A DNA stretch of 46,505 nt from Catajapyx aquilonaris. Taxonomy: Eukaryota. The stretch is from the NCBI GenBank assembly GCA_000934665.2, contig JYFJ02003084.1:1-46505 (forward strand). Reading direction: 5' to 3'. Below the pieces are notes generated by a model. It was not told the DNA's origin and searched no databases. It saw only the letters and a program-made list of their open reading frames with translations. Below are positions 1,089 to 37,099 of the stretch, one piece after another (within the stretch, counting starts at the first letter, position 1; the number at the start of each line of letters is the position of its first letter). The translations under genes were made by a program, and so were the position numbers.

Positions 1089-2263
1089 TTAGATGCAAAT
1101 TCCCTTCCTTCCGAGCTCCATATTATGCAGAATGCAGCAACTCATAATCACATCTGAAGCACTCTCTGTATCTGATTGCACCAAATATTTGAGCCTTTTA
1201 AATCTGGACTTGACAGAGGCAAAGGCATAGTCAATTTTAGCATAAGTTTTGAAAAGCTGGTTGTTGTACTCAACTTCTTCCATGTTGATCGGTCCTTCCT
1301 CATCAAACGGAACCAAGAGCCAGCCTTTGAGAGGGTAAGCACAGCTTCCAACCAGATGGTACTGGTTGTCTGGGAACATCTCCTTCGAGTGCTGGTACAG
1401 ATCTGATTCTTGCAACACACTTGAAATGTTGGTATTCCCTGGTTCTCCACATGTGCAGCTGGTAAATATCAACTTGGAAGTACATGTTCCTTGCAAAACA
1501 ACGGCTGTTTCAACTTCGCGCCGGTTTCCCTTTGTGAGTAACACTGCTACGGAGCATGCCCCAATCGTGCCTACCACACCCGGCAGCCCCGATATTTCCT
1601 CATACCCCTTTGCAATATTTTCCAGCTGATGTGCTTCTGGCCACTTGATAACCTCTGAATGCTTGACATTACAGACAGTCCCAAACACTCTCCTAACACA
1701 CAGCAACACATGCATCCGCCTCAGTCCGCCAAAGTTCCTTGGTATAATGGGCTGTCCTGTTGCCATGTAATGTAAGGCCACCGCTACCTGCTTCTGCACC
1801 CCCAAGCTGCGGAGGACCTTCGAATGTTCAATCTCAGCCCAGGCATTGCCAACTATGCATGCAACTTCCTCTGCTGTGGAAGGGCTGACGCCAAAGCACT
1901 TTTCAAAGCCGAAAGAGTCAGCAGTGTTGAGATAGATCTTCAAAAGTGGTGATGATGCGCTTGGCTCCTTCCTTTCCTCTTCTGGCGTCTCATCAGTGGC
2001 GTGTTGTTCTGTTGTGTGGAAGTAATGCATGTGTAAATAACAAATTGCATAGTTAACCATGCATGTGAGCTACTCGTACCAGTTGGCTGCATGCTTTCTT
2101 TGTCCTCTAGGCAAGCCTGCAGTATCAGCTGCATAAGAAGCTGCCGACGACGCTTCCTCCTCAACCGCTCCTGCAGAAAGGCAGCCACCAAGGCTACTAT
2201 CTCCTCTTCATCTGTACCACCAGCTAGCACAGACGTAACTGCAGCCATTGTTGCACTATCCAT
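1089..2263 (-). CDS. Harbinger/PIF transposase-derived (HARBI1/ALP1-like) protein, ~367 aa, DDE residues substituted
   Basis: Exons 2263-2080 and 2008-1089 joined by a phase-1 GT-AG intron. HTH region QKQVAVALHYMATG; motifs GVVGTIGACSV, HLVGSCAYPL, YNNQLFKT, IDYAFASVKSRFKRL, CCILHN align with DDE_Tnp_4 (GAIDGTH, GDSGYP, ERAFGxLKxRFR, CCxLHN). Confidence 0.85.
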
Positions 2264-4144: not shown

Positions 4145-6483
4145 ATGGGTTCTGCACTTTCCTTGCCGACACTTCCTTGTGACACCAATAAGTCGGACTG
4201 TTTCGTTTGCGGTCTTTATTGCGTGCGTGAAGGAATGGTGATAGTGGGCTGCCTCACAATTGTTGATTGGCTGATTGGTGATGATGAAGAGAAGGAGGAG
4301 GAGGAGGAGGAGGAAGAAGAGGAAGAAGAAGAAGAGAAGGAGAAGGAGGGGAAAAAGGAGAAGAAAAAGCCACCTACCTATCAGTCAGAGTCCATAATGC
4401 AGTTTCCTGTACGTACTCTTCCCCCATGTTGGGATTTTCATGAGAAAGGTGGATGCAAGGCTCCGAGGTGCCGAAGGGTGCATGAAGTCAATGGGCTCAC
4501 GTAAGTAAAGCTGATGTGTAAGGAAGTTGTTTATGGAGGTTATGAAGGAATTAATATGGGGAACACAGGGTTAACCCCTTTGTGTCAGGGTCTTCCATCC
4601 ATAAGCAAAGGCTTAATGACAATTATCCCTCAGACGGTGACGTGCGAAATGTTCGCTCTCCGGTGACGTGGGCACTTTTTGTGACCAAGCCATATTTTTT
4701 GTTATATGTGGCGAAATATAGCACATTCGGGCTTCACTTTTGAGACAATCATAGTGTGATTCCTTCTACGACAAATAGCGTTTAGTTTACATTTTTTAAG
4801 GAAATAGTGCGATCAGAAAAAAATCGGAAAGAAAATCAGTCGGGGCCAACTCCCGGGGGTAGGGGGATTCCACCCCTTGGCGGCCTGGGATGCCACCGGG
4901 AGCCGCCAGACCGGATCTTGGTTAGGCCCCATCTACGCATTGCCGCCTAATTTATTTTTTCCTGGTCGTGCTAATTGCTCAAAAAATTTAAACTAAACGT
5001 GATTCATCACAGAAATAGTCAAACGAAAATGTTCTCAAAGATGAATCTCGAATGCCCTAAATTTGCCAAGTTATAGCAAAAAAGGGTCGTTGGTCACAAA
5101 AAGTGCCCACGTCACCGTCCGAGGGTTATACAAGTAGTATAATAATTATAGTAGTAGTATTTATAACTACAAGTAAATGTAGCATTTGTGAATTTGGGTG
5201 GATGTGTTGGGAAGCACTGCATTGTAAGTTTAAGATCAGTAGTGTATTCCGCAGAATGGAGATCTTACACAGAAAATTGTGATATCGATAGTGTGGCATA
5301 GCAGATGACAAACCTTTGCAACAAGGAAATTGCCTACAAACACTTAGGCTGGTATATGGTGCCCATGTAACCTAGACTGGTATGAAGTCACTTATAAAGA
5401 AAGACACTGGGTACAAAAGTACCATGTACCAATCTATGCCAAATAGTACAGTGTTGGACATAAATCGAGGCATATTGCTAGCGACATTTTCCGAAGCGGC
5501 AGAAGAAGGAATCGAAGATAAGGATACTGCAAGTCGGGCGAGCAGGATTCCTTCTTCTGCCGCTTCGGAAAATGTCGCTGGCAGTATGCCTCGATTTATG
5601 TCCATCACTGTACAGAACTAGTTCAATATTACTGTACACTTGTGCACTTACTTGTATACAGTATGCAGAAATTGCTACAAATTCTTTTAAAAAATCTTGA
5701 GCAGATGGCCTCTGACTGAGGCTGCAATTAGTGCACATTTACTGAACTTGGTGTGTATGTATCAGCCGTGTGACACTTAGAAATCATGTAAAATTTGTAG
5801 CAATATGAGGATCATATTTTTGAAATGCTCCATAAAATCTTGGTTTACTGCAATTTATTTGATTTGATAATTTTGGAAATAATAACTGTATAAACAGACC
5901 TAGGATACTGTACACGACTGTGATTTTGGAACATCTCTCTCCGTATGATGCTGTATGGTCTGAAAGTATAATTTGGAATTATTTGCGATTTTAAAAATCC
6001 AATTCTGTTCTTTGCAGAAAGTTGCGCAGCCACATCCGCTCTGCCAAGCAGACTTTGGACGTTTGCGTCTACAACGTATCTGCTTCAGACCTGCAAGATG
6101 CTGTGACAGATGCACACAAGAGAGGGGTGAAGGTGAGGGTGATTAGCGATGTCATGCGAGGAAAGTCTTCTGGTACGATTATAGAAGCATGCATAAAGTA
6201 TGGCATTCCATCAGTCTTCAAAGTGCCTGCATCACACTCAGCTGTCCATCACAAGTTCATAATTGTAGACAGGAAGGTATTGCTCTATGGTAGTCTTAAC
6301 TGGACCACAGGAGGGATATACGAGAATAGGGAGTGCCTCAGGGCCACAGACAAACAGGACGCTATTGTTCAGTTTGAAGCTGAGTTCATGCAGTTGTGGG
6401 AGAAGTTCAAGGCTTATGATGACGAATATGAGCAGGTTTTCATGTCACGTGACAAGCCTGCAAAGAGCCTGAAGCAGTCCTAA
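4145..6483 (+). CDS. zuc: Zucchini/PLD6 (MitoPLD) phospholipase D-family nuclease, ~273 aa
   Basis: Exons 4145-4500 and 6018-6483 (AC|gtaagt...ttgcag|A, phase 2). CCCH zinc motif CWDFHEKGGCKAPRCRRVH, IRSAKQTLDVCVY, RGVKVRVISD and a single HKD motif HHKFIIVD followed by GSLNWT. Start codon uncertain (4145 or 4397). Confidence 0.88.
4627..5125. mobile_element. piggyBac-like foldback MITE (499 bp) in the zuc intron
   Basis: TIRs CCCTCAGACGGTGACGTG and CACGTCACCGTCCGAGGG; TTAT on both flanks (4623-4626, 5126-5129); long imperfect internal inverted symmetry. Confidence 0.8.
5449..5610. mobile_element. Palindromic MITE with TA target duplication in the zuc intron
   Basis: TA|CAGTGTTGGACATAAATCGAGGCATA...TATGCCTCGATTTATGTCCATCACTG|TA; arms ~63 bp. 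Confidence 0.85.
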
Positions 6484-7630: not shown

Positions 7631-8158
7631 CCAACAATGAATGACATCCATTAATTCCTGGATAGATCATCTACTCTGAATGGTGCTAGACATAAGTAGA
7701 GTTATGTTCTGTTAAGGAAAGTGAACTGCAAAAGTCCCAGTGTCATGATGTGCTAGAAAAGGTACAGGATTACTGTTGTTATTAATCAATTAATTATGTA
7801 ATGTCATGTAAAACAAGGATTATGGCATACCATGTGTTAGGGTAGTGCAGTTGTCATTCAGGATAATATATCGTTTGTTAATGAGATGTAATCAAATCAA
7901 AGGGATTACGCTCTGGAAATGCAGATCTGGAGATCTGAGATTTACAAGAAGTGTACACTTTTCCTGCGGGGATTTCCCGCTTAGATGACAAATGGGTTTG
8001 TAAGTGTGCATATTTTGGATCTTGTCATGATTTTCATTAGGAGAAAGTTCTTTTGCATCTTAAAGGCAATTTTTGCACATCTTTTGTTAGTTTTAATTTT
8101 GTGGCATTTAATCATGGTTGTTTGTTATGTCATTGTCTAACCAAATGGTTGTACTGTA

Positions 8159-8500
8159 CAATGCTGGACATATTAGCAGTCGCTGAATGTTTTTTTCCGG
8201 TGGTGGTGGTGGCTGCGTTACCTGGCAACCCCATCCGGCAGGCCAATTCAAACATCAGCCCATGGAGAGCGCTTCCATTGTTGCCGCTGTTTACAAATCG
8301 AGTGAGTGAGTGCGCAGGCAGAAGAGACCCGTCGCTGGGTCGTCCGCGGCACTCACTCGATTTGTAAAGAGTGGCAACAATGGAAGCGCTCTCCATGGGC
8401 TGATGTTTGAATTGGCCCGCCGGACGGGGTTGCCAGGTAACGCAGTGCCGTCGCCAACGGAAAAAAAACAATTCAGCGACGGCTAATTTGTCCAGCACTG
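8159..8500. mobile_element. Palindromic MITE (342 bp) with TA target duplication
   Basis: TA|CAATGCTGGACA...TGTCCAGCACTG|TA; arms ~150 bp around a ~40-bp loop. Confidence 0.88.
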
Positions 8501-9144
8501 TATGGTAGAGCTCAAAATTGGTTACTTTTGATAAAAGGAAATGAACACCAATATATGGGTTTTCTAAACAGTGGATGACTATGTTTTGATGATAATTACA
8601 TATATATTGGAAACTATGTTCAAGTTGAAGAGTTCTGCTCTGGTATTAGTATAAGAAACTAGAAACAATTTATTCGGAAAGGTCCCTGTGCTAATGAGAA
8701 TATGTTCTAACATTTAAAAAAAATTATTGTATGCAGACAAATACGCAGCTAACATTTTATGTTTTCTTTATATTTTAGTTGCAGTTATTAGTGCCAACGT
8801 TTTTCTAAACTGAAAACTCCTTCCTAAGGCTGTGATTGTGGTAGAAGGTAAACAGAACTGTGATCATTCAGAGTTATATAAGTGGCTATAACAACTGATT
8901 ATAATTATAGGGATAAGTGCATAATTTTCTGTAATTTGATCATGAGAAATGAACAGTAAATACGTGTGCAATTTTGACTTGTTGTCTTATTATTAAAATC
9001 GTTTGTAATTAGTGACTTCTTCCAAACCCATCTGCTTGTTGTTGATAAACTGTTCCTGCCACCCGAGCACAACTGTTCGCTTTGGTTTTGTTACTGGCCT
9101 CCCCTTTCACATAGCCATATTATTGTTCAGCCTAAAGTGAGGCC

Positions 9145-11969: not shown

Positions 11970-13237
11970 GGAGAATATTTGCGAGATTTCCGGAAATGCT
12001 CTTTGAAGTGTACTGTTTTTGTCAAATGTTAAAACTCCATCAATTATACCTGTACAAATGCTTAGCTTTTATTGACAATAATTATAATTCATTCATCACG
12101 GGTCATGTTAATACTCGACTTAATATTACTTCTGCTGTAATAACACTTTTGACTCATTTCGGAGTTATTAATATCACAAAGGCTGTATTACAATCATGCT
12201 ACAATTTAACACATCTTGCAGGTTAACTATGTGGTCCTTAACAAGTTACAATAAAGGCCTACCGTATACTCTGTGAGGTCCAATTAACTTCATCACAGCT
12301 GTCATTGCTTAACCAAGTCCAATAACAATGGTAACAATAGTGTTGTAATATTAGTACCTCATACAAATCGGAGTATATACAGTAGTTTATTACGTAACGG
12401 ACTACAAAAAATCCGAACATCGACACATATCACATAAGAGGAAAAGTTGTTTTCTGTTGTGCAATGTCCTCTCATATACTTGTAGCTTTTGTTCCAAGTT
12501 TTATAAGCACCTTTAATATAATAATATTATCTTCTGAGGCCTTATACGTGCAGACTTGAAAACCACATAACGGAAATGACATTGCAGCAATATTGCCGTC
12601 CAGGCTATAGCGCATAAATAATTAACGAGTATGCTTACGTAGTCTTACGATAGTGATCAGTCAACTCAATACAGGCGGAAGGCATTTTATTGAACATCAA
12701 TGTACTGTACGTTGCTGTGTTTGTGCAGTCATTTCTGTGGTTGTGGTAGCAACTCTCATGCTGAATCAACGCTTTTTTGAATGTGGTTTATCACACCAAG
12801 TCTGGCTTTCTCATAAACACGTTCATGCTGTACTGAATGTAACAAAAATAAATACCATACAGAAATTCAAACGAGCTTTCAAAATACCATGATAAATCTC
12901 CGCTTTGCAAAAAAAAATTAGTAATAATATGCAGCACAAAACAATGCTTTCAAAATGATTGTCATGCACTACAATAATTTTAGTCCGATTTGGTCAATAA
13001 CTGATTAATTCTTACCTAAGTCCGACGGACTTAACGAGGCTTTTAGTGAAGACGGATTTTTCAGGTATATGAATATCATTCTATACATATTATTCATCTT
13101 TTGCAAAGAATTGTCTTCAGTTTTATTAGTCTAAATAGCGAAAAATGCTATTTCCGTCGGGTCATTCGTATGGTCAAGTAATATGTATAATATTCCGCAC
13201 AATTTTGCACGATGCTGAATGCGCTGAGAAGAACCTG

Positions 13238-16200
13238 CTAGTTGTCTTCAGGAAATTTTAATCGTGGTGCTTCGACGAGTTTCTGTGGTCCAACTGTGGT
13301 CACCCCATCCCCACCTGGAGCGTAATTTGAATGTTCGATGCCAAACGACGATATGATGATGTTGAGGAGTGAAGTGATGAACACTAGCAGGAGGATGACG
13401 TCGTTAATTATGCTTGCTGCTCCTTGGTTTTTTTCTTTGTTGATATTTAAGCCTCCGATCACTATGTAAAGGATTCCGACCACAACCTGTCACATATAAA
13501 AATTGCTTGATATGAACTGGAGGAATACTTCATGACGCTGAAGGTACAGTTGCATCTTTACAAATGAATGAAATGAAATATCATTGTTGTCGGCACACCA
13601 TACGGTATTATTAGGCTACGTGTTTTTATTAGTCCCATATACAGCATGTCGTTAGTTCATCAATTATATTGTATTTTGTAGCACAGTTGCACACCGAATC
13701 ATATCACAGCCATATTTGAAATGAGATCGCAGGCAAAAAGTCATGTTTAAAAGGCATTCGAAACTTACCTAAGTATACGCATGAGTGTTTTTTTTTTTTT
13801 TGCTTCTTGCCACAGTCGCCTAAACTGCAGAAATGTTGAGCTATTACTATCCATTTATTTGGAAAATTTTGTATTGCACTATACTATAAAGCATGTGGGT
13901 AAATTACGAGATATTCTTCGCAGTAACTGCAAGCCAATGAAATTGTTTATTGACAACTTCTATGTTCTATCCCAAATCGTTTAATATCAGTGACGTATGG
14001 GTTGATAAGCTTTATAAGTGTAGAAGCTTGTCTCGCATTTTTCTTTGTAATTATCCCTGACCAAATAATATTTTATTTCTCAAAATCAAGAATATGATAC
14101 GTCACTCTTTGGGAGTTATGGCAGTTTCAAATGGTATTTAAAAAGTAGTTGATTGCACCTTGATTGCACGTGGTGTAGCCTACTAGATAATTTTAGTTTT
14201 TCTATTATATTGCAGTAAAAGTAAGACAGGTTATTTGGGCAAGTCATTTATTTGTGCTCTCATTTCTACTGAAGCTTTCTTCTGGCCTAATATTTTAAAC
14301 TGAAAACAAAATAAATTCTTGCTGCCCATAATGAACAATTTAGACGTGTCATCTACTTCCAAGGTTAGTTAACGCGTATATGTGTACTGAAACCATACAA
14401 ACATGACACATAGAGCCCAAGAAAACGAAAGCAGGAGCATGTCTGCACTATATGCTTTCTTGGATGTGTCGAGTCGCATAAACCAGATGTATAGTTAATA
14501 TTTTAAAAATTCGTCTTGCGCATAAACCAAAACGTAAATAAGTGCACATCTATTATACTGTATGTCTCACAAGCACCAAACGCACCAACTAACAGTGAGC
14601 ATCAAGTCATACAGAATGTTCATAAACATCAACCGATCGAGTAATTAGCGCCAGTCCCTCCTCTCGATAGTCGAATCCCACTCAAAGACGGACTTGAAAA
14701 TGTCGACGACCATCAGTGTGAACGTCAAGATGAGAACCACGAGATTGATGATGTCCACTGCCCTCTGCTGCGCCACAGAACCCATGTTAAGCGCCACTTG
14801 CACCACGGTGAAGATGGCCAGCAACGACTGATGGGCACCCAGCAGCCAGTCACATCAAAAGTAGTCAGCATCAGCTACAATTTTTTTTTCATCCAACTTT
14901 CTTTGGGGGGGTTAGGTAGTAAGGTCCAGGTTTGGAAGGAACAGGCTGGGATTCACTCTCTAAATTATTATTATTTTTTCATTTTTTTCTCCAATTGATA
15001 TAGAACTAATATTTGTGAGTGCTCTTTCAACTATATTCTCTTAGAACCAGTTGTATCAACTCAAATGAGAAGGAAAAGCTCTAATTATATATGTATTGTG
15101 AATATCTGCATACAACCGTTCCTAATAGCGATTTCCCTGAGAATTACATTTGACTAAAAAAACTAAAATTGCATTTTTTTATAAAAAATAAATTAATCAA
15201 TGATATTGCTTAATAAATAAATTTAGATTTATTTAATCACTTTGGAAAGGAGCAGGTGCCATTTGTAGTGTAGAAATAGTGAAAACCCACTAATTGAGCA
15301 GAATTCCACTCGTGTTGTAACAGGGCATTATATGCAATGCATGTGCAAAAGATGTGGTGAGAGAAACTCGTGTGGTCATTACATCAGGGGAAGGGGCCCC
15401 CTGAGGACGGAGACAGGGTCGAATGCGCAGATGAGGATGTTGAGGACGGAAACTAGGAAGGATGCGGAGAGTCCCACGTAGTTGAAAACCAGAGCTGACG
15501 TTTGGTAGGGTATCAAGTGCAGGCGGCAGTCCCTCAGGAAGTTCAGGGTAACGCTCAGCGTGGCCATCACCACCTATTATATACACATGCATATACACAC
15601 GGTGATGTAACAACCACAGAGTTTTCCTCACGAAACACTGCTTTCCTTTACATATACATTTACACGTCTAACTTTTAATCGAACTTGTATGATTATATTG
15701 AACAGATCACAGCTTAAAAATAGATCTACGATTGACAGAAGCCAGATCGACTTGAAGTGAAGAAAGCAAAAGAGCACGCGATGGAAAGTAGGCTATGCCA
15801 TCATGCTCGTATAGGACAGGAAGGGTTATACAGTGTGGAAGGGGCAATGCCCTTTCCAGCAGAAAGTGCGGGTCGAAGATTTAAACCTGGCTGACTTTAC
15901 TACAAACAAACAAAACCGAGACCAAGATGAAACCCAGGCAAGGTGAATGTCGAGGGTTATCATTTTTATGATAAATGGTGTCAGTCATTATAATAAAATT
16001 GGTTCATGCGTGTCTTACGTGCGTTTCGTGAAACGCGGTGCATTTAGTTCATTAACGCTGCTGTTGCTGTCAAAAAATGGGGACAACAAGACTGTGGGCA
16101 TCGATTTCCGGTTGACCACGGCGGTGTCTTGTGTTTGCCTTTGAGGTAAGGTCGTCGTCTAGGCGACCTCATTTCTTATTGGCACTCATATTGCCCACCA

Positions 16201-18427
16201 TGTATGTGACCATTGATCCGAGGTGAAAATGAACGAAGGGTGTGCAGACAACAATAGAGCTCACTTCACTTCATGCGAGGTTTAAATCTGATTACGTACC
16301 ACGTTGCATTACGATCATAATCATAATGGGAGTCAATTTCATGGTATAATTTCAGCCAATATGTAGTTGACCATTAATCGCTGCAATATTTGGTAATTAT
16401 GCATGATTGAGGTAAAAAAAAGGACTGCTACACTATTTGTCATGTTGCGTAATTATGCATCAAACTTTGTGAATAACTCTATTGATATATTGTATATTAT
16501 TAATGCTCCAAAATACCAAAAATGCAATGCAGTAAAAGAGAATATTGTTAATTAATTATAATGTAGTTAGTACGTTGTTTTTTTGCTGAAGAGGAGGTGC
16601 GCCAGGTCACAGTTAAAAGAACACAAAGCAGTAGGTGGAATTAAATAACACAGAATGAGCTCTCTGAAGGACGCAAACAGTGCGAAGAACAGACAAAAAA
16701 ATGTTTAGAATAAAAGATGATAATAATAATGGGACAAACAATATATTTGTACTAGTACTGGAGCCACAGTCAAGTGTTGTAAAAGTAATTAAAATGGTCA
16801 TCCAGATTACGATGTACTAAAAATAGTCTATGGATCCTCTCCTTTATTTTGATTTCTGTTTTGCTCGATTTGAATGTATCGTTTCCATTCTGCCTACACT
16901 TGAAATATGACCCGCTTATTTTCAGAAAATGCGGTATATTCTCACAATTGATTCACAATCAATACTGGCAATAGCTTTTTGTCGATTTGGCTAACCTTTT
17001 TTCATAAATTGGATGTGATAGGCCCTTCTACAATTTTATTGTGCATTTTTCGTCAAATAGCAGTTCCCACTCATCACCAATAAGTTAATGAGTCGAATAA
17101 AAGTAATGTCCAAAAAGGATTTCATGTGAAAGAGTGAAACATTACTCGATGTAATTTAGTGGGTATACGTTAGTATACTTTAATTTAGTCGACTTTTAGT
17201 GTACGTGACATATACTCGTATAAGCAGCTAATTCACTCCACTATCTTGAGAGTAACATAAATCGATGCAAGATCCAGTGAAGATTTTGACAACCAGGTTT
17301 AAACCTCGCCTCCTTAATAAGTACTATAATGAATTTTGATAATCGAATGATGTATAGAGTATTAAAAAATAATGACAATAATCACCTGCAGTATGATGGA
17401 AATGGAGATGAGGGAGACAAGCACTGTGTAGAACTCGTGCTTCTCTCCGACCTGGAGGACATATTTGAGTTGGCTGGCGTTGGCGGTCAGCAAGGCAATG
17501 TCCAGCATGCCCTGGGCAATGGTTTTCCTCGTGGCATACCTGTTGGCGTCCAGCCCAGGTTTGCCCTGCCAGCCCCATAGGTGAAAGGGAGAACAAAAAG
17601 ACAACTTTCAGGCCCACATTGCAACAATGCTACAAATGCACGGTGCAAATTTTGTTGCGATTTTTTTCGTCCAACACATCGAATTTATTTATTTTGAAAA
17701 CGTTTGATCTATATGCAGCTGTGCTATGCAGAGAGTCAATGAGTCATCCCCGCTAAAAGGTTAGAGGTACCTGGTATCACACCATTGTCTGGTAGAATTT
17801 ACGTAACGGCCGTCTCCTAGGCGAGTGCCATCGATCAATTTCCTTGTAATATTTACCACCTGCCATTAGCTTCGACCATTTTCATAGGAATTGCTATTTG
17901 CTAGTCGATACGGATGGTACGAACCTCAAACTGTAGTACTAATATTGAAAGCATTTTTCTTATTGAACAATAACTTCTTGTGACATGCGTGATAATGTAC
18001 GGTATATATCTACAAAGCAATTAGGCTACTCCAGCAGCCACCAGAAGGGTTTTTCATTGCAGGTTTATTGTGACTTCATTACCCAAGTTCTGATACTGTA
18101 TACTACCAATGAATAGGTCATTATCAAAACCAGGATATCTCATGTTGTCAAAAGCGTGTTAATACCTGGTTACAGGAAGCAACTCGACGCTAAATTCATA
18201 TTTCAAATAATATGGAAAATTTTCACATTGGATTCACCTCCCATTGGGCAAAGTCACTTTGAGCGTGAAAAGACTTAGTTAATCTGAATTACCTGTTTTC
18301 TGAAGGATTCGTACGGATAATGAGTTAATGACTATACTCAAATAAATGTTGGGCGATTTTCAATTGAGCACAAATTGTGTTAAATACATACCACTCTTCC
18401 ATCGTCAGGAGATATTGACGTCATCAT
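13238..18427 (-). CDS. NijC: Ninjurin (NijC-like) gene: common exons plus distal terminal exon 3d
   Basis: Exon 1 18427-18392 (MMTSISPDDGRV, less certain); exon 2 17565-17386 (DANRYATRKTIAQGMLDIALLTANASQLKYVL...ISISIILQ, ninjurin signature); phase-0 splice to 13486-13238 (VVVGILYIVIGGLNINK...INDVILLLVFITSLLNIIISSFG). Confidence 0.88.
14645..14827 (-). CDS. Ninjurin alternative terminal exon 3c (absent from the ORF track)
   Basis: catcag| phase 0; SLLAIFTVVQVALNMGSVAQQRAVDIINLVVLILTFTLMVVDIFKSVFEWDSTIERRDWR*; two hydrophobic segments homologous to exon 3d. Confidence 0.8.
   Translation of the reverse strand, partial: SLLAIFTVVQVALNMGSVAQQRAVDIINLVVLILTFTLMVVDIFKSVFEWDSTIERRDWR
15379..15573 (-). 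CDS. Ninjurin alternative terminal exon 3b
   Basis: aatag| phase 0; VVMATLSVTLNFLRDCRLH...FNYVGLSASFLVSVLNILICAFD...*; minus-strand AATAAA at ~15228. Confidence 0.82.
   Translation of the reverse strand: MVMATLSVTLNFLRDCRLHLIPYQTSALVFNYVGLSASFLVSVLNILICAFDPVSVLRGPLPLM
16613..16816 (-). CDS. Candidate divergent ninjurin alternative terminal exon 3a
   Basis: ctatttttag| phase 0; YIVIWMTILITFTTLDCGSSTSTNILFVPLLLSSFILNIFLSVL...*; keeps the N-x13-N spacing of the other three exons. Confidence 0.55.
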   Translation of the reverse strand, partial: YIVIWMTILITFTTLDCGSSTSTNILFVPLLLSSFILNIFLSVLRTVCVLQRAHSVLFNSTYCFVFF

Positions 18428-20265
18428 GAGGCGTCACCACTACCACCAACTCCAGGTATAATATCCTAGTCCTCTGGACGGAGTCCCCAAGCTCACTGTA
18501 GTATATGCCCCGCTGCTTCCAACTGCACAGCCCAGTGGCCCAGTTGTGGGCGGGGGGGCCCCTCTACTCTTGGATCGGCAGTCACGCAATAATCATCGAT
18601 CCTTAAAAAGACCTCGCTTTCACTCACTCACTGCTATGCTACAGTACCTGCATTAAAATTGCGACATGGAAGTCCCAACAACCGGCTCCTAGGAAAATTT
18701 TTGTACGTATCTCAGTCTGCCCTGTTGGTCGATCTGTTGTATAGAAAAGGTCGATCTTCCTCTACAGGCATGAATCATGGCATTGACTGCCTAATGCGGC
18801 CTCCAACACCGACGGTAGCCATGTTAAGGCCACCTTTAACACGGTCTACTGGCCATGCGGTTTATGGGTACTATTGTTCTTCATACAGCCTGGCCTTTCT
18901 CTCCTCCGTTTTTTGCTTCTTTATTTTTACGACAGTCTGATTCGAGAGGTGGGATCTTTCGAGGTCGACAGGAATCATATCCTTCACAATTATTATGACT
19001 TGTTTTTGTTTTTATTTAAAGTGACAGGTGTGGTTGGTGACAGCGACAAGTGTAAGCTCAGTTCACAATAATTCATTTCCTGAAAGTAACTTTCTATAGT
19101 AGTCATTAAAGCCATCAACCAATAGACTACCAGTCTACCAACAGCAGAGTCGCGAATTTTATTTATTTATTGTCCAGGTGCAATAAACAACAACAACAAC
19201 AACAATATACAACATTAAACTGTACCGTGCACACTACTGTCCATCATATACCGGTATATAATTGGCTAGGCGTGACTTTGTCCCTTTACTATAGGTGAAG
19301 GTGACTCATCACCTGTGCTGGGCAGTGTCGCTTACGTTAGTTGAAGCAGAAAGAATTGTACCAAGGTAAGTTATTGCAATATTCTTTGTGATGATTGGTA
19401 CACCATGGTAACATATCCGAACTTCCATTGTAAGACGCCGCATATTATTACAATGCTGCACGGTAGTACCTATGCACTGTGCAACGCGCTGTTGAAGTGC
19501 CAAACGCAATGACACAGGCTAGCTCTGTTGTGGCCGGAGTTCTCACCAGAGATGTCATGGTGGGTCAAATAATTTCCATTATTTTTAATTAATTTCCTTA
19601 GTTCATAACCCACCATGTTTTTCATCCCTTTCCTCCAGATGGCAGCACCACCTCCGCATGAACCGTAAACTCCGATACGGTAGATCTTTCTCCCGAGCTT
19701 CCCCAAGAGACGTCCAGTGGGCAGCATCTCCCGGGGCATCTCTCCTCCCCACATTGCGATATTATATATCCTTCTTCGCCAACCTCTCTCGGGTTTCCTC
19801 TTCCTCCACCACTTGCTGGACACAATTAAATGCACTGAATCATCGGTCCAGACGGGAACGATGAAGCTGGACAGACGCCCCTGAAAAGCGACCCCACACA
19901 CACGTGAGTTCATGGGAAAAAAAAAAAGTGTTGCACAAACTGGTTAGGCCTAATAGGATGGAGTCAAAAATTACAAGTCATTATTAGTCATTATAGTCAT
20001 TAGGAGAACAGACGTGTGCTGGAGCACCCTGCAGACTCAAGGGCTGGTAAGCACACCTGCACATTAATTGGCGTGGCAATCAGGTAACTGGCATTAGTAC
20101 GACCTCTTGGTACGACGTATGACAGCAATGCCGGGGCATAATTAGACACTTTCACTAATTGGAGTACTTATACGGCATGCTTATAAGCACTGCTAAGTGG
20201 CCGTTATCGGGGAAGAAAGCAAGTGATTTAATCACCATCTGACTGTCCTGTTTCCAGGTAGCGAC

Positions 20266-23200
20266 ATGTACAGCTTTGAGGGAGAGTTCCGCACGCGTCC
20301 GCACCAGAACCTGGGAGGACTGCGGTCTCGCCCTGAGCGGGAGAAACTTCTTCGGCATGCCCACGAGGAGCGGCAGAAGCGACAGACTGAGCGTAGGCGG
20401 TTGGCGGCCACCACACATCTGCAGGCGTTTGCGAGGGGATGCCTGCAGAGGACCAACTTGCGGTCCAACCTGCATATGCAGTTTGATTCCGCTATGGCCT
20501 CTCCTCAGAGCGAGATTGATGCCAGCTCCTTTCTTAGCCAGCAGATGTGCCGCCTTCTGTTCCTGTATCGTGGGGAGGAGGATGCAGGGAGGCTGATGGC
20601 TTTGTCCAAACAGATTCTGAAGCAGAGGGACAAGGTGGTGGCGGAGACTGCGGCGGAGGTTGTGTCTGGAGTGAGAGTAGGGGGCGGGTGGATACACAGG
20701 CTGCGGAGGCTCCTCTGGCGTCACCTGCAACTTTTAGTCCACCTGTCCAAGGAGGCGCAACCGGGAGACTCGCCGGCTATCTCGCTAAGGATATGGGAAG
20801 TCTTCGGCATGCCCAAAACCTGGGTGGAGGTGGTCGACGAGGCAAAAGCTACTGCGCTCTTGGTCAACGTGTACACCTTCATTATTTTTAGAGGTATGTG
20901 GAATTGCAGGGCTGTGAGAAGAATGTGGGTATTGTTCTTCCTGCAGGAAAATAATCTGGAACATTCGACGTGGCAAATTGTTGCAACCGATAGTGTGGGT
21001 TGACAATGGGAGTTAATGTTGAGGTCACAAGCTGAAAGAAAAGTTACTATTTTTCCAAAACATTTCATCCAGAAAATATAAATCCTCTGTTCATAGATCG
21101 ACCTTTTGTTTTGGACAGCATGTTTTGGCCAGATCACTTGCATATCACATGAGAATTTTGAGTCTAAGTTTGATTTTGGACGAAAATTTTGATGGAGTAT
21201 CATTTTGATGACAGTACCAAGGACAAAATGTCGTTTAAATATTGTTTGATGTGGTTTTGGCTCATTGTCAGTGGTACAACACCACAATTACTAGTGCAAT
21301 CATGCATTAATTTCAGTTCATGTGCAAAGGATTTGAATAGAGGACTTGTTGATATTTGTTTCGCTTTCAAGGTCTAATGTTGGTTAAATGTTGTTGCAGG
21401 CTACTTTCACGACATACGTTTCTTGCTGGAAGCAAAGGTTCCTCCGATGTTGGAAAAATCTCCGAGGCCGCCAACTCCCCTTTCAGCCAGCATCCTCGCC
21501 ATGTTGTTTCAGCCCCTAGACCTGTTCAGAGCATCCAGTGACCAAAACTTCCAGTGAGTTTCTCAATTTGTTATTGTATTGAATCACAGCTAAGTGTCTG
21601 TCCCTGAGTGCGTTGTTGTAAACTACACCTCTTCATTTTACAGAAAACTTGTGTCAAGAAATCTTTGCGCCGCTTTACTCGCCCCTCGTCCTTCTGAGAC
21701 AGTGAGCAACCTGGTGATCCCTGCTCTCTGTAACTGGCCGCAGCTTCCCTTCTACCTGCTGGTGGACACTCTAGCCGGTGACCCTCCCCCCACGGATACC
21801 TCCTGCTCTCCTTGGCTTCTACGTTCCCTGCTGCAGCTGGCCCAACTTCATCTTGACACTCCGCATGCCTCCAGCTTTCTTCGGGTCTTGGTGCACACGC
21901 TGGACTCCATACCACCTCCACTGCCTTCTTCTGGCTCGGCAGGTGACCAAGGAACAGATAGTGACTCGGAGGATGAGGAGGAACCTTCCCTCACTGAGGG
22001 CATTTCCCGCGAAGAAAAGCAGTGTCTGGATGAGGGCATGGAGCTTTTGAATGACCCCCGCATGGTTACAGCACTGATGACCTGGCTTGATCAACTGGAT
22101 GGGAACTGGTCACTTGAAGCAGTGTGCCGCCTCTGCCACGTGCTTCTGTTGTCGGACCGCCTTGCAGCCCACCGCTTCCCACTCTTATACACCCTGGCTT
22201 TCCGGCCCCACTTTCTCCATCGGCTGTGGGCAGCTATGGCGGGCATAGGAGCTCCCAGGCTTCTACAGGCTGTGGCAGAAGGTGTCCATCTTTCACATGC
22301 CCAACAAGAGAGGCTCCTTCCGCCCCTGGCCACCTTCTGCTCGCTGTTTAGCTACCTGCTGGTGACACTCCATGACTCGGAGTTTTACGGCGAGGAAGCA
22401 GCAACAGCCATGCCCTTCACCCTTGCGGAGCTGCCTGGGGTGTGCAGGCAGCTGCGTGACGTTTGCTTAGGATTAGTGGACCTGGCATTTCCCGACCAGC
22501 GTCCAGCATACAGGGAAGCAACAGGGTTGCTGGAAGAGAGCAGCGTGCGCAGGCAGTGGGTCACGTCCTCTCAGGTGTGGAGCCACCTGCTGAGGTCCTG
22601 CGTGGGACTCTTGGCCCAGCTGCATGCCAGGGACGCCAGAAGGCCATTCTGCCCAGAAGGACACTGGATATCCTCGAAAGTGTCCCTGCCCTTTGACCGA
22701 CCCACAGACCTCAGCTGCCAGAGGCAGCGGTTCAGAGGATATCGGCCCTTTCATCTCTACCACATCACCAGGCAGCAATTGGGTAAGTCTTACCAGTGTG
22801 TAATGATGTATTACATGGGCAGCCTAAGAGGAATGCGATTGCAAGTCCAGGTCATGTACATACATTTTGAAACAACTACGTACTCGACGAAATACGTTCC
22901 TAATCTCTTTCAGAGCAAGATGGTCCTCCCCCTTCAATCCGTGAGGTGCGTCTGATGACTGTTCTGCGTGAGATCCCCTTTGTGGTTCCATTTGCGGAGC
23001 GGGTGGAGGTTCTCCAGCAGCTTGTTCTTCGTGACCGTGCTCAGCAGCAGGGTGGAGAAGCCGCGGCATTCCTTCAGGGCCCTTCCATTCAGATTCTGGT
23101 GCGTCGTTCCTATCTGTATGAGGATGCGTTTGACAAGCTGAGCCCGGAGAATGAGCCCAACCTGAAGTTGAAGATGCGGGTGCAGTTAGTGAATGCAGCT

Positions 23201-24713
23201 GGGGTGGACGAGGCAGGAATAGATGGCGGAGGACTGTTCCGGGAATTCCTTTCGGAAGTGCTTCGAACTGGGTTTGATCCCAATCGAGGCTTCTTTCGGC
23301 TGACTCATGACAACCTTTTGTACCCCAACCCCAGTGTACACCTCTTGCTCCCACCTGACCAATTCCCACGCCACTACTATTTTCTGGGCCGTCTGCTTGG
23401 GAAGGCATTGTATGAGAATATGCTGGTGGAGCTGCCACTGGCCCACTTCTTCCTTGCGAAGTTGCTGGCAAGGAGTTCGGCCAACGTGGACATTCACCAC
23501 CTGGCGTCTCTTGACCCGCTCATGCATCGCAATTTGCTTTCTCTCAAGAACTACCCAGGAGATGTGGCTGACCTTGGGCTTGACTTCACATTGCTGGCTG
23601 AGGAGCTTGGAGAGACAAGGGTCAGTGTCTCTTTAATAATGTAATTGTGTTGCTGTAGTGTGCCTTTAAAAGTTATGTGCAAGTAGACCTACATTTACAT
23701 GTTGGCAAAGATGATTTTCGCACTGGTACCAAGGAGTCTTCAAATTTCAACTATGTTGCCTGCACATATGTGAGAATGTTGAGATATTGACGTAGTGTTG
23801 TATAATTTTTTTGAACAGGTCGAGGAGCTGAAACTTGGTGGAGCCCAAATTCCTGTGACAGCATCGAATCGTATTGAATACATTCATCTAGTCGCTGACT
23901 TCAAGCTCAACAGGCAGATACGAGCGCAATGCAATGCATTTAGACAGGTAAGGCAGTACAACTCGACTAGTTTTTGTAAGACTTGACACTTCCTCTTCCA
24001 AAAATCTACAACTTTGGAATTTCTGTGATTTCTGTTTGCACGGATTTAACAAACATCGCACCTTCTTAGTTGAAGTCTTGTTCGGAACTGTTGTTATGAA
24101 AACTGTCCTTGACTCTTTGCCTGCTTGGGCCTGTGTTATTTTTACTTTGAGCATACTTCCTCGCTGAAGTCAATATCATTGAAACAATATATCAAACGTG
24201 ATGACCTTTCTGGTGTCATTAGTGCCTCGTATTCCCACAAGTCGGCTAGTGCATACAGGTAGTAAATGTGGAACTCTTAACCTGCAGGGCCTGGCCAACG
24301 TGATCCCTCTTGAATGGCTGCACATGTTCAGCTGCAAGGAGCTTCAGGTTCTCATCTCAGGGGCCCGTGTCCCGATTGACGTGGATGACCTGCGAGACAA
24401 TTGCGTGTATTCAGGAGGATACACCTCTGAGCACCCCACCATTCGACTGTTCTGGAAGGTGGTGGAATCGTTCACAGACCAGCAGAGGAGGCAACTCCTC
24501 AAGTTTGTGACGAGCTGCTCTCGACCACCGTTGCTAGGCTTCCGGGAGCTGTATCCACCATTCTGCGTTCAGAGTGCTGGGAGTGAAGAAAGGCTTCCAA
24601 CCGCCTCCACATGCATGAATTTACTGAAGCTGCCAGAGTTTTCAGAGGAGCATGCTCTCAGAGAGAAGCTGATATATGCCCTGGAGTCTGGCTCTGGTTT
24701 TGAACTTAGTTGA
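20266..24713 (+). CDS. UBE3C: HECT E3 ubiquitin ligase UBE3C, ~1060 aa
   Basis: Exons 20266-20893, 21400-21553, 21644-22782, 22914-23620, 23819-23947, 24288-24713, all in phase. N-terminus MYSFEGEFRTRP..LGG, IQ-like LQAFARG, HECT motifs EAGIDGGGLFREF and RLPTASTCMNLLKLP, C-terminus GFELS. Confidence 0.95.
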
Positions 24714-25625
24714 AGAATAATTACGGTGCAAAATAATTATTATACCCCCAATCCTTATGACCCTGAACTCTCAATCATTGTGGCCCCCCTCATTCAATAC
24801 ACTGACATTTTTTTGTTTTTTTTTGTTTTTTACTTTACATCACAGCAGAAAGAGTCTGCAAGAGTGTAAATAGTGAATTAGGTGATGGTTGAGTGTGGGA
24901 ATAAAGCGCATGAAGTGTGCATGACAAAAGAGTGGCGCATCCCTTCTAATTTAAAGTGTGTTTTAGGCTTGTCTGTCATTGAGTCATAGGAGTGCCAAAA
25001 ATGTTTCGGACATGCTGATAAATTTCTCCAGTGATTTGTGACAACAAAAAGTAAATGGTTAAATGGGATATTTCCACGTGATGTGACATTTCAAAGTTAC
25101 CATCAAGATTGTTGTATTATGTTCGTAAACGCATTAAATTTTTTGTAATTCCTATTGTAGACGATCTGTGAATCTATTTGCCAGCAGCTAGTGGAGTTTT
25201 TCCACTACCGTACCCGTCATTCATGAATCAGTCATATGCAAGTTGAGAAGAATAAAATATGTCACTTAATTTCGCACATGAGCTGGGCCTAGTAGAAAAT
25301 ATTTTGAGTTAAGTTGAACCTGAAATATGCCAATGGAATGCTCTACATACAAGAAAATAGTTCACGCATCATTATCATCCATGGGAAGTGGAATGCTCAA
25401 GTTCACAGTTCATGTGATGGATAGGTTTAATTTTCATTTGCTTACACAGTAATTTAAATTGCTAATTGTTTCAAGGAATCGAAATGTATTTGTGAAACAT
25501 CCCAAGAAAAAGTCCTGAGACAGATTTTCTGCTCTTTCTCTCTGGCATTACATTGCAATATTTACATGTTACATATAGTATATCAGCTACACCAACAATT
25601 ACTTCGTAGCGCCAGTATTCTTGTT

Positions 25626-36760: not shown

Positions 36761-37099
36761 TCACTACCAAATTCCGCACCAACCACTATTACAGACTCGA
36801 GTCCGAGTCTCCAGCACGTATCTCCGCCTGTCCGGCCAAGAGGGCTCCTTCCCAAAAGGACCTTGAACCGCTTTTTTTTTTACACCAACCCTCGCACAAC
36901 CAACCAGCAGCCGCACCTCAAGCTGCTCAGCAAAACCTGTTCGTACAATTTCTCAGACAAACGCGACATATAGGATCAAACTATTGCGTCACGATTCACT
37001 TTTGACCATCCGATGCGGCCTGACATTACGTCAACCAGCTCTCCTTCGTAGGCGCAGCTCATCTATATTCCCTCGTGAGTGGTGTCTGCTGTCAGGCTC

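What the first reader, a model, noticed from the sequence alone, without database searches (positions are those of the whole stretch)
15876..17309. Docking-site/selector-like competing RNA duplexes in the ninjurin introns
Seen: about 76 nt past the common-exon donor lies element D (17290-17309; transcript GCGAGGUUUAAACCUGGUUG). Two downstream intronic elements complement it: S1 at 16275-16293 pairs 18 of 19 nt, and S2 at 15876-15893 pairs 18 of 18 nt. Four of the five deviations are G-U wobbles only on the transcribed (minus) strand. S1 and S2 are also perfectly complementary to each other over 12 nt. I saw no other extended copy in the window. Known: competing docking/selector pairing controls mutually exclusive exons in arthropod Dscam1, 14-3-3 and Mhc. 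Inference: D:S1 or D:S2 loops out exon 3a and brings the donor toward 3b, while S1:S2 frees D, giving a three-way splicing switch that I do not know to be described for ninjurins. Caveats: the core is palindromic, and only weak selector candidates precede 3c and 3d.
Basis: partly seen in the sequence, partly recalled or inferred. Interest (0 to 1): 0.78.

Follow-up and report, generated by a model that had tools for sequence, protein, structure and literature searches.

The report
Competing RNA helices in ninjurin introns
An arthropod ninjurin gene with three alternative last exons carries several strong intronic RNA pairings placed where they could steer exon choice, a plausible but untested new example of a mechanism already known from other insect genes.

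Summary
The three elements exist exactly as described. D lies 76 nt past the exon-2 donor and pairs with S1 (18 of 19) and S2 (18 of 18). Such a two-partner hub arose in 1 of 282 intron shuffles. It is less special against real sequence: the window holds about two comparable non-repeat hubs per strand.

The interpretation needs revision. "Exon 3a" shows no ninjurin similarity (profile E 8.6). The supported cluster is 3b, 3c and 3d, each with its own stop, in an order shared with two other arthropod loci. S1:S2 pairing is negligible (probability 0.00). No D-complement precedes 3c or 3d.

New findings:
- S1 abuts one arm of a 31-bp inverted repeat (-38.4 kcal/mol). The other arm ends 82 nt before 3d.
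- A 28-bp stem encloses exon 3b. An unrelated 18-bp stem sits at the same place in another arthropod.
- Folding predicts D:S2 (p about 0.94) before 3d is transcribed, and D:S1 plus the repeat in the full intron.

Conservation of D, S1 and S2 could not be tested. My verdict: a plausible new member of the known competing-pairing mechanism at 3' variable regions, confidence about 0.4.

The parts
17386..17573 (-). Common ninjurin exon 2, covering Pfam Ninjurin profile positions 1-53. The donor GT lies at 17385-17384.
   Evidence: Pfam PF04923 E 8.8e-25. A spliced X5 contig joins 18515..18391, 17573..17384 and 13484..13157.
17288..17310 (-). D, the donor-proximal docking-like element. Its core is a 12-nt palindrome, and it starts 76 nt after the donor.
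   Evidence: It pairs with S1 (20 pairs, -26.0 kcal/mol) or with S2 (22 pairs, -31.0 kcal/mol).
16613..16816 (-). It is an open frame behind a TAG acceptor-like site and is not supported as a ninjurin exon.
   Evidence: No Pfam hit. 0 BLASTP hits among 120 ninjurins. Profile E 8.6.
16275..16295 (-). S1, the first partner of D, about 1 kb downstream of it.
   Evidence: It is paired with D in the minimum-energy fold of the full intron.
16239..16274 (-). E1, the upstream arm of a 31-bp inverted repeat. It starts at the base directly after S1.
   Evidence: RNAduplex -38.4 kcal/mol with 28 Watson-Crick and 3 G-U pairs. Local alignment score 21.5 against a maximum of 16.5 in 500 shuffles.
15871..15895 (-). 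S2, the second partner of D. Its core is 15876-15893, and it ends about 300 nt upstream of the 3b acceptor.
   Evidence: D:S2 probability is 0.66-0.95 in the 1,881-nt fold.
15603..15631 (-). 5' arm of the stem that encloses exon 3b, lying 29-58 nt upstream of the 3b acceptor.
   Evidence: 28 pairs, -38.8 kcal/mol, reached by 0 of 40 local shuffles. The stem is present in all four full-intron minimum-energy folds, the unconstrained one and the three constrained ones.
15379..15573 (-). Alternative last exon 3b, including its stop codon.
   Evidence: Profile E 1e-6. It is 50-55% identical to the C-termini of mosquito, stick-insect and moth isoforms. Acceptor sequence shown.
15357..15386 (-). 3' arm of the stem that encloses exon 3b. 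It starts 5 nt before the 3b stop codon.
14645..14827 (-). Alternative last exon 3c, including its stop codon.
   Evidence: Profile E 1.9e-5. BLASTP to 3d E 1e-5. Pfam E 0.0039, below the cut-off.
13568..13599 (-). E2, the downstream arm of the inverted repeat. It ends 82 nt upstream of the 3d acceptor.
13238..13486 (-). Alternative last exon 3d, coding part with its stop codon. The 3' UTR continues downstream.
   Evidence: Pfam E 9.1e-9. Profile E 1.3e-12. The exon 2 to 3d splice is seen in an X5 contig.

Best explanation
The locus is the 3' variable region of an arthropod ninjurin gene. One common exon is spliced to one of three homologous alternative last exons, 3b, 3c or 3d. Each has its own stop codon, and polyadenylation signals follow 3b and 3c. 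In this species the intron before 3b has grown to 1.8 kb, and the whole region carries a small set of strong intronic helices that I propose bias the choice.

(1) D, 76 nt after the donor, pairs either with S2 or with S1, never both. S2 lies about 300 nt before 3b, so D:S2 brings the donor close to 3b.

(2) S1 is physically continuous with E1. E1 is one arm of a 31-bp inverted repeat whose other arm, E2, lies 82 nt before 3d. D:S1 plus E1:E2 therefore forms a two-helix relay that shortens the path from donor to 3d from 3.9 kb to about 160 nt and loops out 3b and 3c. D:S2 and E1:E2 cross each other, so the two states exclude one another in nested folds.

(3) A 28-bp stem encloses exon 3b together with its probable branch-point region. 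It would hold back the proximal exon.

What is shown: the sequences, the energies, the geometry, the exon homology, the exon 2 to 3d splice, and the recurrence of a 3b-enclosing stem in a second species. What is inferred: that these helices form in vivo, and in which direction each one shifts splicing.
For: - Geometry and energies: D:S1 20 pairs at -26.0, D:S2 22 pairs at -31.0, E1:E2 31 pairs at -38.4, 3b stem 28 pairs at -38.8 kcal/mol.
- Against shuffles of the intron: a two-partner hub at or below -23.5 occurred in 1 of 282, and three or more helices at or below -23.5 in 0 of 282. Eight extended duplexes at or below -28 compare with a shuffle mean of 2.3, and 0 of 118 shuffles reached 8.
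- E1/E2 is a genuine inverted repeat: alignment score 21.5 against a null maximum of 16.5 in 500 shuffles. Of the 5 rows with separated arms scoring at least 20 in the 46.5-kb window, 3 are simple (ATT)n repeats, so it is one of only 2 that are not low-complexity.
- Folding: in the 1,881-nt partial transcript D:S2 has p 0.66-0.95 and D:S1 has p 0.05. The full 3,971-nt minimum-energy fold (-956.5) has D:S1 directly stacked on E1:E2. Forcing D:S2 costs 20.6 kcal/mol and abolishes E1:E2.
- Random placement of 3-5 helices gives a donor-to-3d path of 158 nt or less in 0.6-1.0% of trials. Together with a path to 3b of 379 nt or less, the figure is 0.01-0.06% (a post hoc statistic).
- The cluster is real and old. 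3b, 3c and 3d match a ninjurin profile. The order 3b-3c-3d recurs in metagenome locus L004, and 3b, a weak 3c-like exon and 3d recur in L005. Two Culex isoforms are identical for residues 1-76 and then carry 3b-type or 3d-type ends.
- Independent recurrence: in L004 a perfect 18-bp stem of unrelated sequence joins the exon 2-3b intron to the bases right after the 3b stop. Its energy is -33.4 and 0 of 40 shuffles reached it.
- The mechanism is established for other insect 3' variable regions: PGRP-LC, CG42235 and Pip (PMC6191721; abstract, passages and section 17 read).
Against: - No conservation or covariation evidence exists for D, S1, S2, E1 or E2. The D core motif is absent from all five related loci, though these come from distant species.
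- Real sequence in the same window is rich in comparable helices, about 2.2-2.4 per 3.9 kb at or below -23.5. It has about two non-repeat two-partner hubs per strand, including another palindrome-like triple at 35690-38704.
- Extended duplexes at or below -32 number about 100 per strand, mostly in the GC-rich parts of the window.
- The core is palindromic, so three copies of one motif pair by construction.
- Strand asymmetry favours the transcript only for D:S2. D:S1 and E1:E2 are almost as stable on the other strand.
- L005, a third species with the same cluster, shows no significant intron-intron pairing and no 3b-enclosing stem. The same number of shuffles or more did as well: 15 of 25, 25 of 25, 5 of 25 and 16 of 40.
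- Only the exon 2 to 3d junction was seen in RNA.
- Minimum-energy folds of 2-4 kb pre-mRNA are unreliable. They ignore bound proteins and co-transcriptional splicing.
- Pan et al. argue that competing pairings should be less common at 3' variable regions, where a scanning model suffices (PMC6191721, section 17).
Confidence: 0.4

Rival explanations
1. The elements have no function. D, S1, S2, E1 and E2 are neutral leftovers of short palindromic or inverted repeats, from small duplications or decayed mobile-element ends, in an expanded and repeat-prone intron. Their positions near splice sites are coincidence, noticed after the fact.
For: - The window is rich in foldback and inverted-repeat elements and carries a Harbinger-type transposase ORF.
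- Comparable helices and two-partner hubs occur elsewhere in the window.
- A palindromic core makes copies complementary automatically.
- Each pairwise motif match taken alone is weak against 300-nt shuffles: 11 of 200 and 14 of 200 shuffles reach the score.
- D:S1 and E1:E2 show no strand preference.
- L005 has no such pairings.
Against: - No flank similarity extends beyond about 19 nt.
- DNA-run depth across 15608-17509 is 38.1-40.5, about the 31-41 seen in most other bins, so these sites are not part of a recent repeat family.
- The joint geometry is improbable under random placement, at 0.01-0.06%, though this statistic is post hoc.
- An unrelated stem at the equivalent place around exon 3b in L004 argues that structure matters in this gene cluster.
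Confidence: 0.4
2. It is a three-way switch in which D:S1 or D:S2 loops out a coding exon 3a, and S1:S2 pairing releases D.
For: - The pairings exist.
- S1 and S2 share a perfect 12-bp complementary core.
- An open frame with an acceptor-like TAG lies between D and S1.
Against: - 3a has no ninjurin similarity by Pfam, by BLASTP against 120 homologues, or by a profile of those homologues.
- 3a is absent from L004 and L005, where 3b is the first alternative exon.
- S1:S2 probability is 0.00, and its energy of -16.5 compares with -26 to -31 for the D pairings.
Confidence: 0.07
3. The motif works at the DNA level. Three copies of a palindromic site would bind a dimeric protein, as in an intronic enhancer, silencer or insulator, rather than pairing as RNA.
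For: - The core is a 10-12 bp perfect palindrome, the usual form of a site for a dimeric DNA-binding protein.
- D:S1 is equally stable on both strands.
- The three copies cluster within 1.4 kb.
Against: - I can name no known factor for this motif, and nothing was available to search it against.
- Similarity extends asymmetrically beyond the palindrome in the sense needed for D:S pairing.
- All 3 deviations in D:S2 are G-U on the transcribed strand.
- This reading does not explain E1:E2 or the 3b stem.
Confidence: 0.08

Closest known systems
Competing RNA pairings at 3' variable regions of Drosophila PGRP-LC, CG42235 and Pip (Pan et al. 2018, PMC6191721; abstract, passages and section 17 read)
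   Same: - A common 5' splice site is joined to one of several tandem 3' cassettes.
- A docking element sits in the intron after the common exon, with alternative intronic partners upstream of the cassettes.
- Pairing is proposed to activate a nearby 3' splice site, and the partners compete physically.
- The pairings are specific to a lineage rather than deeply conserved.
   Different: - Ninjurin is not mentioned in that paper (0 occurrences).
- Here both partners of D precede the same cassette.
- The distal exon would be reached through a second helix fused to S1.
- There is no experimental or comparative support here.
Dscam1 exon 6 docking site and selector system, and the related 14-3-3 and Mhc clusters (as summarised in the abstract of PMC6071210 and section 17 of PMC6191721; other details recalled)
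   Same: One docking element next to the constitutive exon. Several mutually exclusive complementary partners. A tandem cluster of homologous exons.
   Different: - Those are internal mutually exclusive exons with one selector per exon. Here the exons are alternative last exons.
- No D-complement precedes 3c or 3d.
- Conservation is untested.
Bidirectional and long-range pairings in srp and in Dscam exon clusters 4 and 9 (Yue et al. 2016, PMC4691838; abstract read)
   Same: Several long-range helices act together. Approximation of splice sites is the proposed effect. The outcome depends on relative pairing strength.
   Different: Those cases rest on upstream and downstream pairings around internal exons and were validated by mutation. 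The two-helix relay proposed here (D:S1 next to E1:E2) is only predicted.
Duplication model for the origin of competing structures (Ivanov and Pervouchine 2018, PMC6071210; abstract read)
   Same: Two similar selectors competing for one docking arm is the pattern expected when one arm of a stem-loop is duplicated.
   Different: No similarity around S1 and S2 beyond the motif supports a duplication. The S1 against S2 flank alignment is at null level, with 99 of 200 shuffles as good.

Membership tests
Docking-site/selector competing pairings (Dscam exon 6 type) | Tandem cluster of homologous alternative exons, of which one is used | tested here: met
   3b, 3c and 3d match a ninjurin profile at E 1e-6, 1.9e-5 and 1.3e-12. 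The exon 2 to 3d splice is seen in RNA. Culex isoforms share residues 1-76 and then carry 3b-type or 3d-type ends. Use of 3b and 3c in this species was not seen directly.
Docking-site/selector competing pairings (Dscam exon 6 type) | A single docking site in the intron next to the constitutive exon | tested here: met
   D starts 76 nt after the exon-2 donor.
Docking-site/selector competing pairings (Dscam exon 6 type) | One selector upstream of each variable exon, all complementary to the docking site | tested here: not met
   S1 and S2 both lie upstream of 3b. The best D partner before 3c or 3d is -17.8 kcal/mol with large internal loops.
Docking-site/selector competing pairings (Dscam exon 6 type) | Docking site and selectors conserved or covarying in related species | not testable with these tools
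   No genome is held. Run and read caps are spent. The five related loci come from distant species and lack the motif. Scans of the genome and viral collections found nothing.
Competing pairings at a 3' variable region (PGRP-LC type) | Alternative 3' cassettes, each ending the transcript, spliced to one common 5' splice site | tested here: met
   Each of 3b, 3c and 3d runs into its own stop codon. None contains a GTRAG donor-like site. AATAAA or ATTAAA signals follow 3b (15237/15233) and 3c (14252-13630). Actual poly(A) site use was not shown.
Competing pairings at a 3' variable region (PGRP-LC type) | Mutually exclusive intronic pairings that bring the common donor near alternative 3' splice sites | tested here: inconclusive
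   The geometry and predicted folds fit, but real-sequence background is high. There are no in vivo or mutational data.
Exon-enclosing (looping-out) stem | Strong inverted repeat flanking an alternative exon, found again in another species | tested here: met
   Window: 28 pairs, -38.8 kcal/mol, 0 of 40 shuffles. L004: 18 perfect pairs of unrelated sequence, -33.4, 0 of 40 shuffles. L005: none, -18.9, with 16 of 40 shuffles as good. That makes 2 of the 3 loci that contain 3b.

The most novel reading that the evidence does not exclude
Arthropod ninjurin genes choose among their alternative last exons through lineage-specific RNA architecture. In this species that architecture includes a relay: a 55-nt adapter strand (S1 plus E1) binds the donor-proximal docking site with one half and a site 82 nt before the distal exon with the other half. 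One docking decision, S2 or S1, would then select the proximal or the distal exon, and it would flip as transcription proceeds. I did not find a docking site read out through such an adapter helix, instead of through one selector per exon, in the papers I searched.
Probability: 0.2. Interest if true: 0.7.

Novelty: new member of a known kind. Interest (0 to 1): 0.45.

Why it matters
Ninjurins are membrane proteins tied to cell adhesion and, in vertebrates, to plasma-membrane rupture in cell death. In insects the second transmembrane half is swapped by alternative last exons, and a butterfly study reports stage-specific ninjurin-A isoform use (PMC12518556, passages read). How that choice is made is not described in the literature I could search.

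If the helices act as proposed, ninjurin would add a compact and experimentally tractable case of RNA-structure-guided choice among alternative last exons. Few such cases are known (PGRP-LC, CG42235, Pip). It would also show how pairing can offset intron expansion and link splicing choice to the progress of transcription. The recurrence of a 3b-enclosing stem with unrelated sequence in a second arthropod is the best hint that structure matters in this gene family.

Tried and rejected
- Whole-genome motif count: no genome is held for this window, so \"common dispersed repeat\" could only be tested inside the window and indirectly from DNA-run depth.
- RNA runs: no RNA holder is listed. Run X5, of unrecorded kind, turned out to hold spliced contigs. 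It had no cover over 15608-16875, which includes 3a, S1 and S2, so it says nothing about them.
- Orthologous introns: the metagenome scan gave 5 loci from distant species. L001 to L003 contain only exon 2. The genome contigs and viral-contig scans found no relative. Earlier-findings look-ups gave nothing relevant.
- RNA.duplex_subopt on whole introns gave meaningless giant duplexes. A first extended-duplex scan used too strict a complexity filter and dropped E1:E2; it was redone.
- A hub count without an energy threshold was uninformative, with 172 of 500 shuffles showing a \"hub\". It was redone with energies.
- In one search exon 2 was translated in the wrong frame, so that row is void. In one search the D:S2 register was off by one; this was corrected.
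- Rfam: 0 matches in the window.
- TIR idea: I considered D and S1 as terminal inverted repeats of a 1-kb element. By eye there is no target-site duplication, and no multi-copy depth, so I left this folded into the neutral rival.
- Literature: six searches found no paper linking ninjurin to docking/selector or RNA pairing. One search listed one unrelated review (PMC12828087, on FGFR splicing) that holds the three words ninjurin, mutually exclusive and docking site. Hatje and Kollmar 2013, which lists Drosophila 3' tandem clusters, is not held. It, and the supplements of Pan 2018, which I did not open, could mention ninjurin.

Full report
**1. The observation**

On the minus strand, exon 2 of a ninjurin gene ends at 17386 and is followed by a GT donor. 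A spliced contig of run X5 joins 17384/17386 to 13484/13486, with GT..AG ends on the gene strand.

- D (17309..17290) starts 76 nt after the donor.
- S1 (16293..16275) pairs with D at 18 of 19 positions, with one G-U and one C-A mismatch.
- S2 (15893..15876) pairs with D at 18 of 18 positions, three of them G-U.
- The S1 and S2 cores are exact complements over 12 nt.

A search for the 15-nt core with up to 3 mismatches finds only these three sites and one 3-mismatch site at 42394. That is 6 strand-wise matches against 1.35 expected, and 1 of 100 shuffles reached 6.

**2. Is it more than chance?**

Against dinucleotide shuffles of the 3,899-nt intron, one helix of this strength is not rare. A helix at or below -23.6 kcal/mol occurs in 14% of 150 shuffles. 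A site with two partners, both at or below -23.5, occurred in 1 of 282 shuffles. Three distinct helices at or below -23.5, as in the real intron, occurred in 0 of 282.

Real sequence is a harsher control.

- The window has 26-29 distinct non-low-complexity helices at or below -23.5 per strand, or 2.2-2.4 per 3.9 kb.
- It has 4-5 two-partner pairs per strand. Several belong to foldback repeats. About two per strand do not, including a second palindrome-like triple at 35690-38704.
- The three sites share nothing beyond about 19 nt.
- DNA-run depth over 15608-17509 is 38.1-40.5, like most other bins. They are therefore not pieces of a recent repeat family.
- The claimed G-U strand bias rests on D:S2 alone (-26.1 against -17.1 kcal/mol). 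D:S1 is symmetric at -24.5 against -25.2.

**3. The gene**

Pfam places exon 2 on Ninjurin profile positions 1-53 (E 8.8e-25) and places 13489..13241 on positions 54-102 (E 9.1e-9). I built a profile from 120 insect ninjurins found with exon 2. That search returned 837 proteins at E<=1e-5 among 891 candidates, the best 120 were listed, and they were 75-89% identical to the query. The profile scores the pieces as follows.

| Piece | Profile E-value |
|---|---|
| exon 2 | 2e-47 |
| 3d | 1.3e-12 |
| 3b | 1e-6 |
| 3c | 1.9e-5 |

BLASTP of 3a against the 120 proteins gives 0 hits at E<=1, against 46 hits for 3b, 19 for 3c and 89 for 3d. I therefore treat 3a as an unsupported open frame.

The supported exons start at phase-0 acceptors at 15573 (3b), 14827 (3c) and 13486 (3d). 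Each runs into its own stop codon and contains no GTRAG donor-like site. Poly(A) signals follow 3b and 3c. These are tandem alternative last exons.

The cluster is old.

- Metagenome locus L004 has 3b, 3c and 3d in the same order, with tiny spacers.
- L005 has 3b, a weak 3c-like exon and 3d.
- Two Culex isoforms are identical for residues 1-76 and then carry a 3b-type or a 3d-type end.

**4. New structural features**

A scan of the intron for ungapped helices puts D:S1 and D:S2 at the top. It also finds 16256..16239 paired with 13599..13582. When extended, this is a 31-bp duplex (E1 16274..16239, E2 13599..13568) of -38.4 kcal/mol, with 28 Watson-Crick and 3 G-U pairs.

- It is a real inverted repeat. 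The alignment score is 21.5 against a maximum of 16.5 in 500 shuffles.
- Of the 5 rows with separated arms scoring at least 20 in the window, 3 are simple (ATT)n repeats. It is one of only 2 that are not low-complexity.
- E1 begins at the base directly after S1.
- E2 ends 82 nt before the 3d acceptor.

A second strong helix (15631..15603 with 15386..15357; 28 pairs, -38.8 kcal/mol) encloses exon 3b. Its 5' arm lies 29-58 nt before the acceptor, and its 3' arm starts 5 nt before the stop codon. None of 40 local shuffles reached its energy.

In L004 the equivalent places, the exon 2-3b intron and the bases right after the 3b stop, form a perfect 18-bp stem of unrelated sequence. Its energy is -33.4 kcal/mol and 0 of 40 shuffles reached it. 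L005 has nothing comparable: -18.9 kcal/mol, with 16 of 40 shuffles as good. Two of the three loci that contain 3b thus have such a stem.

**5. Predicted folding**

In the 1,881-nt transcript from exon 2 to the 3b acceptor, D:S2 has pair probabilities of 0.66-0.95, D:S1 has 0.05 and S1:S2 has 0.00. In the 3,971-nt transcript reaching 3d, the minimum-energy structure (-956.5 kcal/mol) has D:S1 directly next to E1:E2, together with the 3b stem.

| Constraint on the 3,971-nt fold | Energy (kcal/mol) |
|---|---|
| none | -956.5 |
| D:S2 forced (E1:E2 is lost, because the two cross) | -935.9 |
| D kept single-stranded | -939.4 |
| E1 kept single-stranded | -929.9 |

Random placement of 3-5 helices gives a donor-to-3d path of 158 nt or less in 0.6-1.0% of trials. 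Together with a path to 3b of 379 nt or less, the figure is 0.01-0.06%. This statistic was designed after seeing the data, and multi-kb folds are rough guides only.

**6. Most likely mechanism (confidence about 0.4)**

D is a docking-like element with two exclusive partners. D:S2 brings the donor near 3b. D:S1, extended by E1:E2, forms a relay that brings the donor to within about 160 nt of 3d and loops out 3b and 3c. The stem around 3b restrains the proximal exon.

Because E2 is transcribed last, the balance could shift from D:S2 to D:S1 plus E1:E2 as transcription proceeds. The sequences, energies, geometry, exon homology, one splice junction and the recurrence of a 3b stem are shown. Formation of the helices in vivo, and the direction of each effect, are inferred.

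**7. Rivals**

- *Neutral leftovers (0.4).* The elements are remnants of palindromic or inverted repeats in a repeat-prone intron. Supporting this are the high real-sequence background, the foldback-rich window, the palindromic core, and the lack of any pairing in L005.
- *DNA-level palindromic protein sites (0.08).* This reading does not explain E1:E2 or the 3b stem.

**8. Comparison with known systems**

The closest known system is the competing pairing at the 3' variable regions of Drosophila PGRP-LC, CG42235 and Pip (PMC6191721). It shares the common donor, the tandem terminal cassettes, a docking element after the common exon, and lineage-specific pairings. That paper does not mention ninjurin. 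It also argues that such pairings should be uncommon at 3' clusters.

The Dscam-type rule of one selector per exon was tested here and is not met. The site works like a docking system, but it is not a canonical member of that type.

My six literature searches found no paper linking ninjurin to RNA pairing. Hatje and Kollmar 2013 is not held, and I did not open the supplements of Pan 2018. Either could bear on this.

**9. Verdict**

The finding is best filed as a candidate new member of a known kind. It would be of moderate interest to specialists in RNA-structure-guided splicing. Conservation and mutational tests are still outstanding.

Noticed in passing
window 17573-18392 (minus strand): The X5 contig joins 18515..18391 to 17573... 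The allowed 2-nt shift gives a GT donor (18391-18390), but the intron then ends in GG rather than AG. The junction reads in frame from an ATG at 18402, which would give a very short N-terminus before the conserved ninjurin region. A canonical CAG acceptor lies a few bases downstream, at about 17566.
   Followed up: partly
window 13591-13630 (minus strand): An AATAAA at 13630 lies just upstream of E2, and an unspliced X5 contig (14585..13591) stops inside E2. Contigs cannot show RNA ends, but E2 may overlap the 3' end of the 3c transcript. If so, E1:E2 could also affect cleavage and polyadenylation.
   Followed up: no
L004 719-981: In this other arthropod, the intron between exon 2 and 3b is 66 nt long, in frame and free of stop codons. 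It holds the 5' arm of a perfect 18-bp stem (743-760 with 964-981). That stem loops out 3b and ends about 50 nt before the 3c acceptor.
   Followed up: partly
window 35690-35708, 37350-37366, 38688-38704 (minus strand): A second set of three mutually complementary, palindrome-like sites lies within 3 kb, with helices of -25 to -28 kcal/mol. It is the same kind of two-partner hub as D, S1 and S2, in a region I did not annotate.
   Followed up: no
window 8138-8524; also 4661-5117, 5446-5613, 9-138, 204-368: These are foldback (self-complementary) elements. The one at about 8.1-8.5 kb has a summed DNA-run depth of about 29,000 against about 38 elsewhere, so it belongs to a very high-copy repeat.
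   Followed up: partly
window 1089-2069 (minus strand): An open frame with a DDE_Tnp_4 (Harbinger/PIF-type transposase) domain, Pfam E 5.4e-18.
   Followed up: no
window 20227-25216 (plus strand): The neighbouring gene encodes a HECT-domain ubiquitin ligase (Pfam E 4.5e-52 and 1.7e-19). X5 contigs show four GT..AG splice junctions in it. It lies head to head with the ninjurin gene.
   Followed up: no
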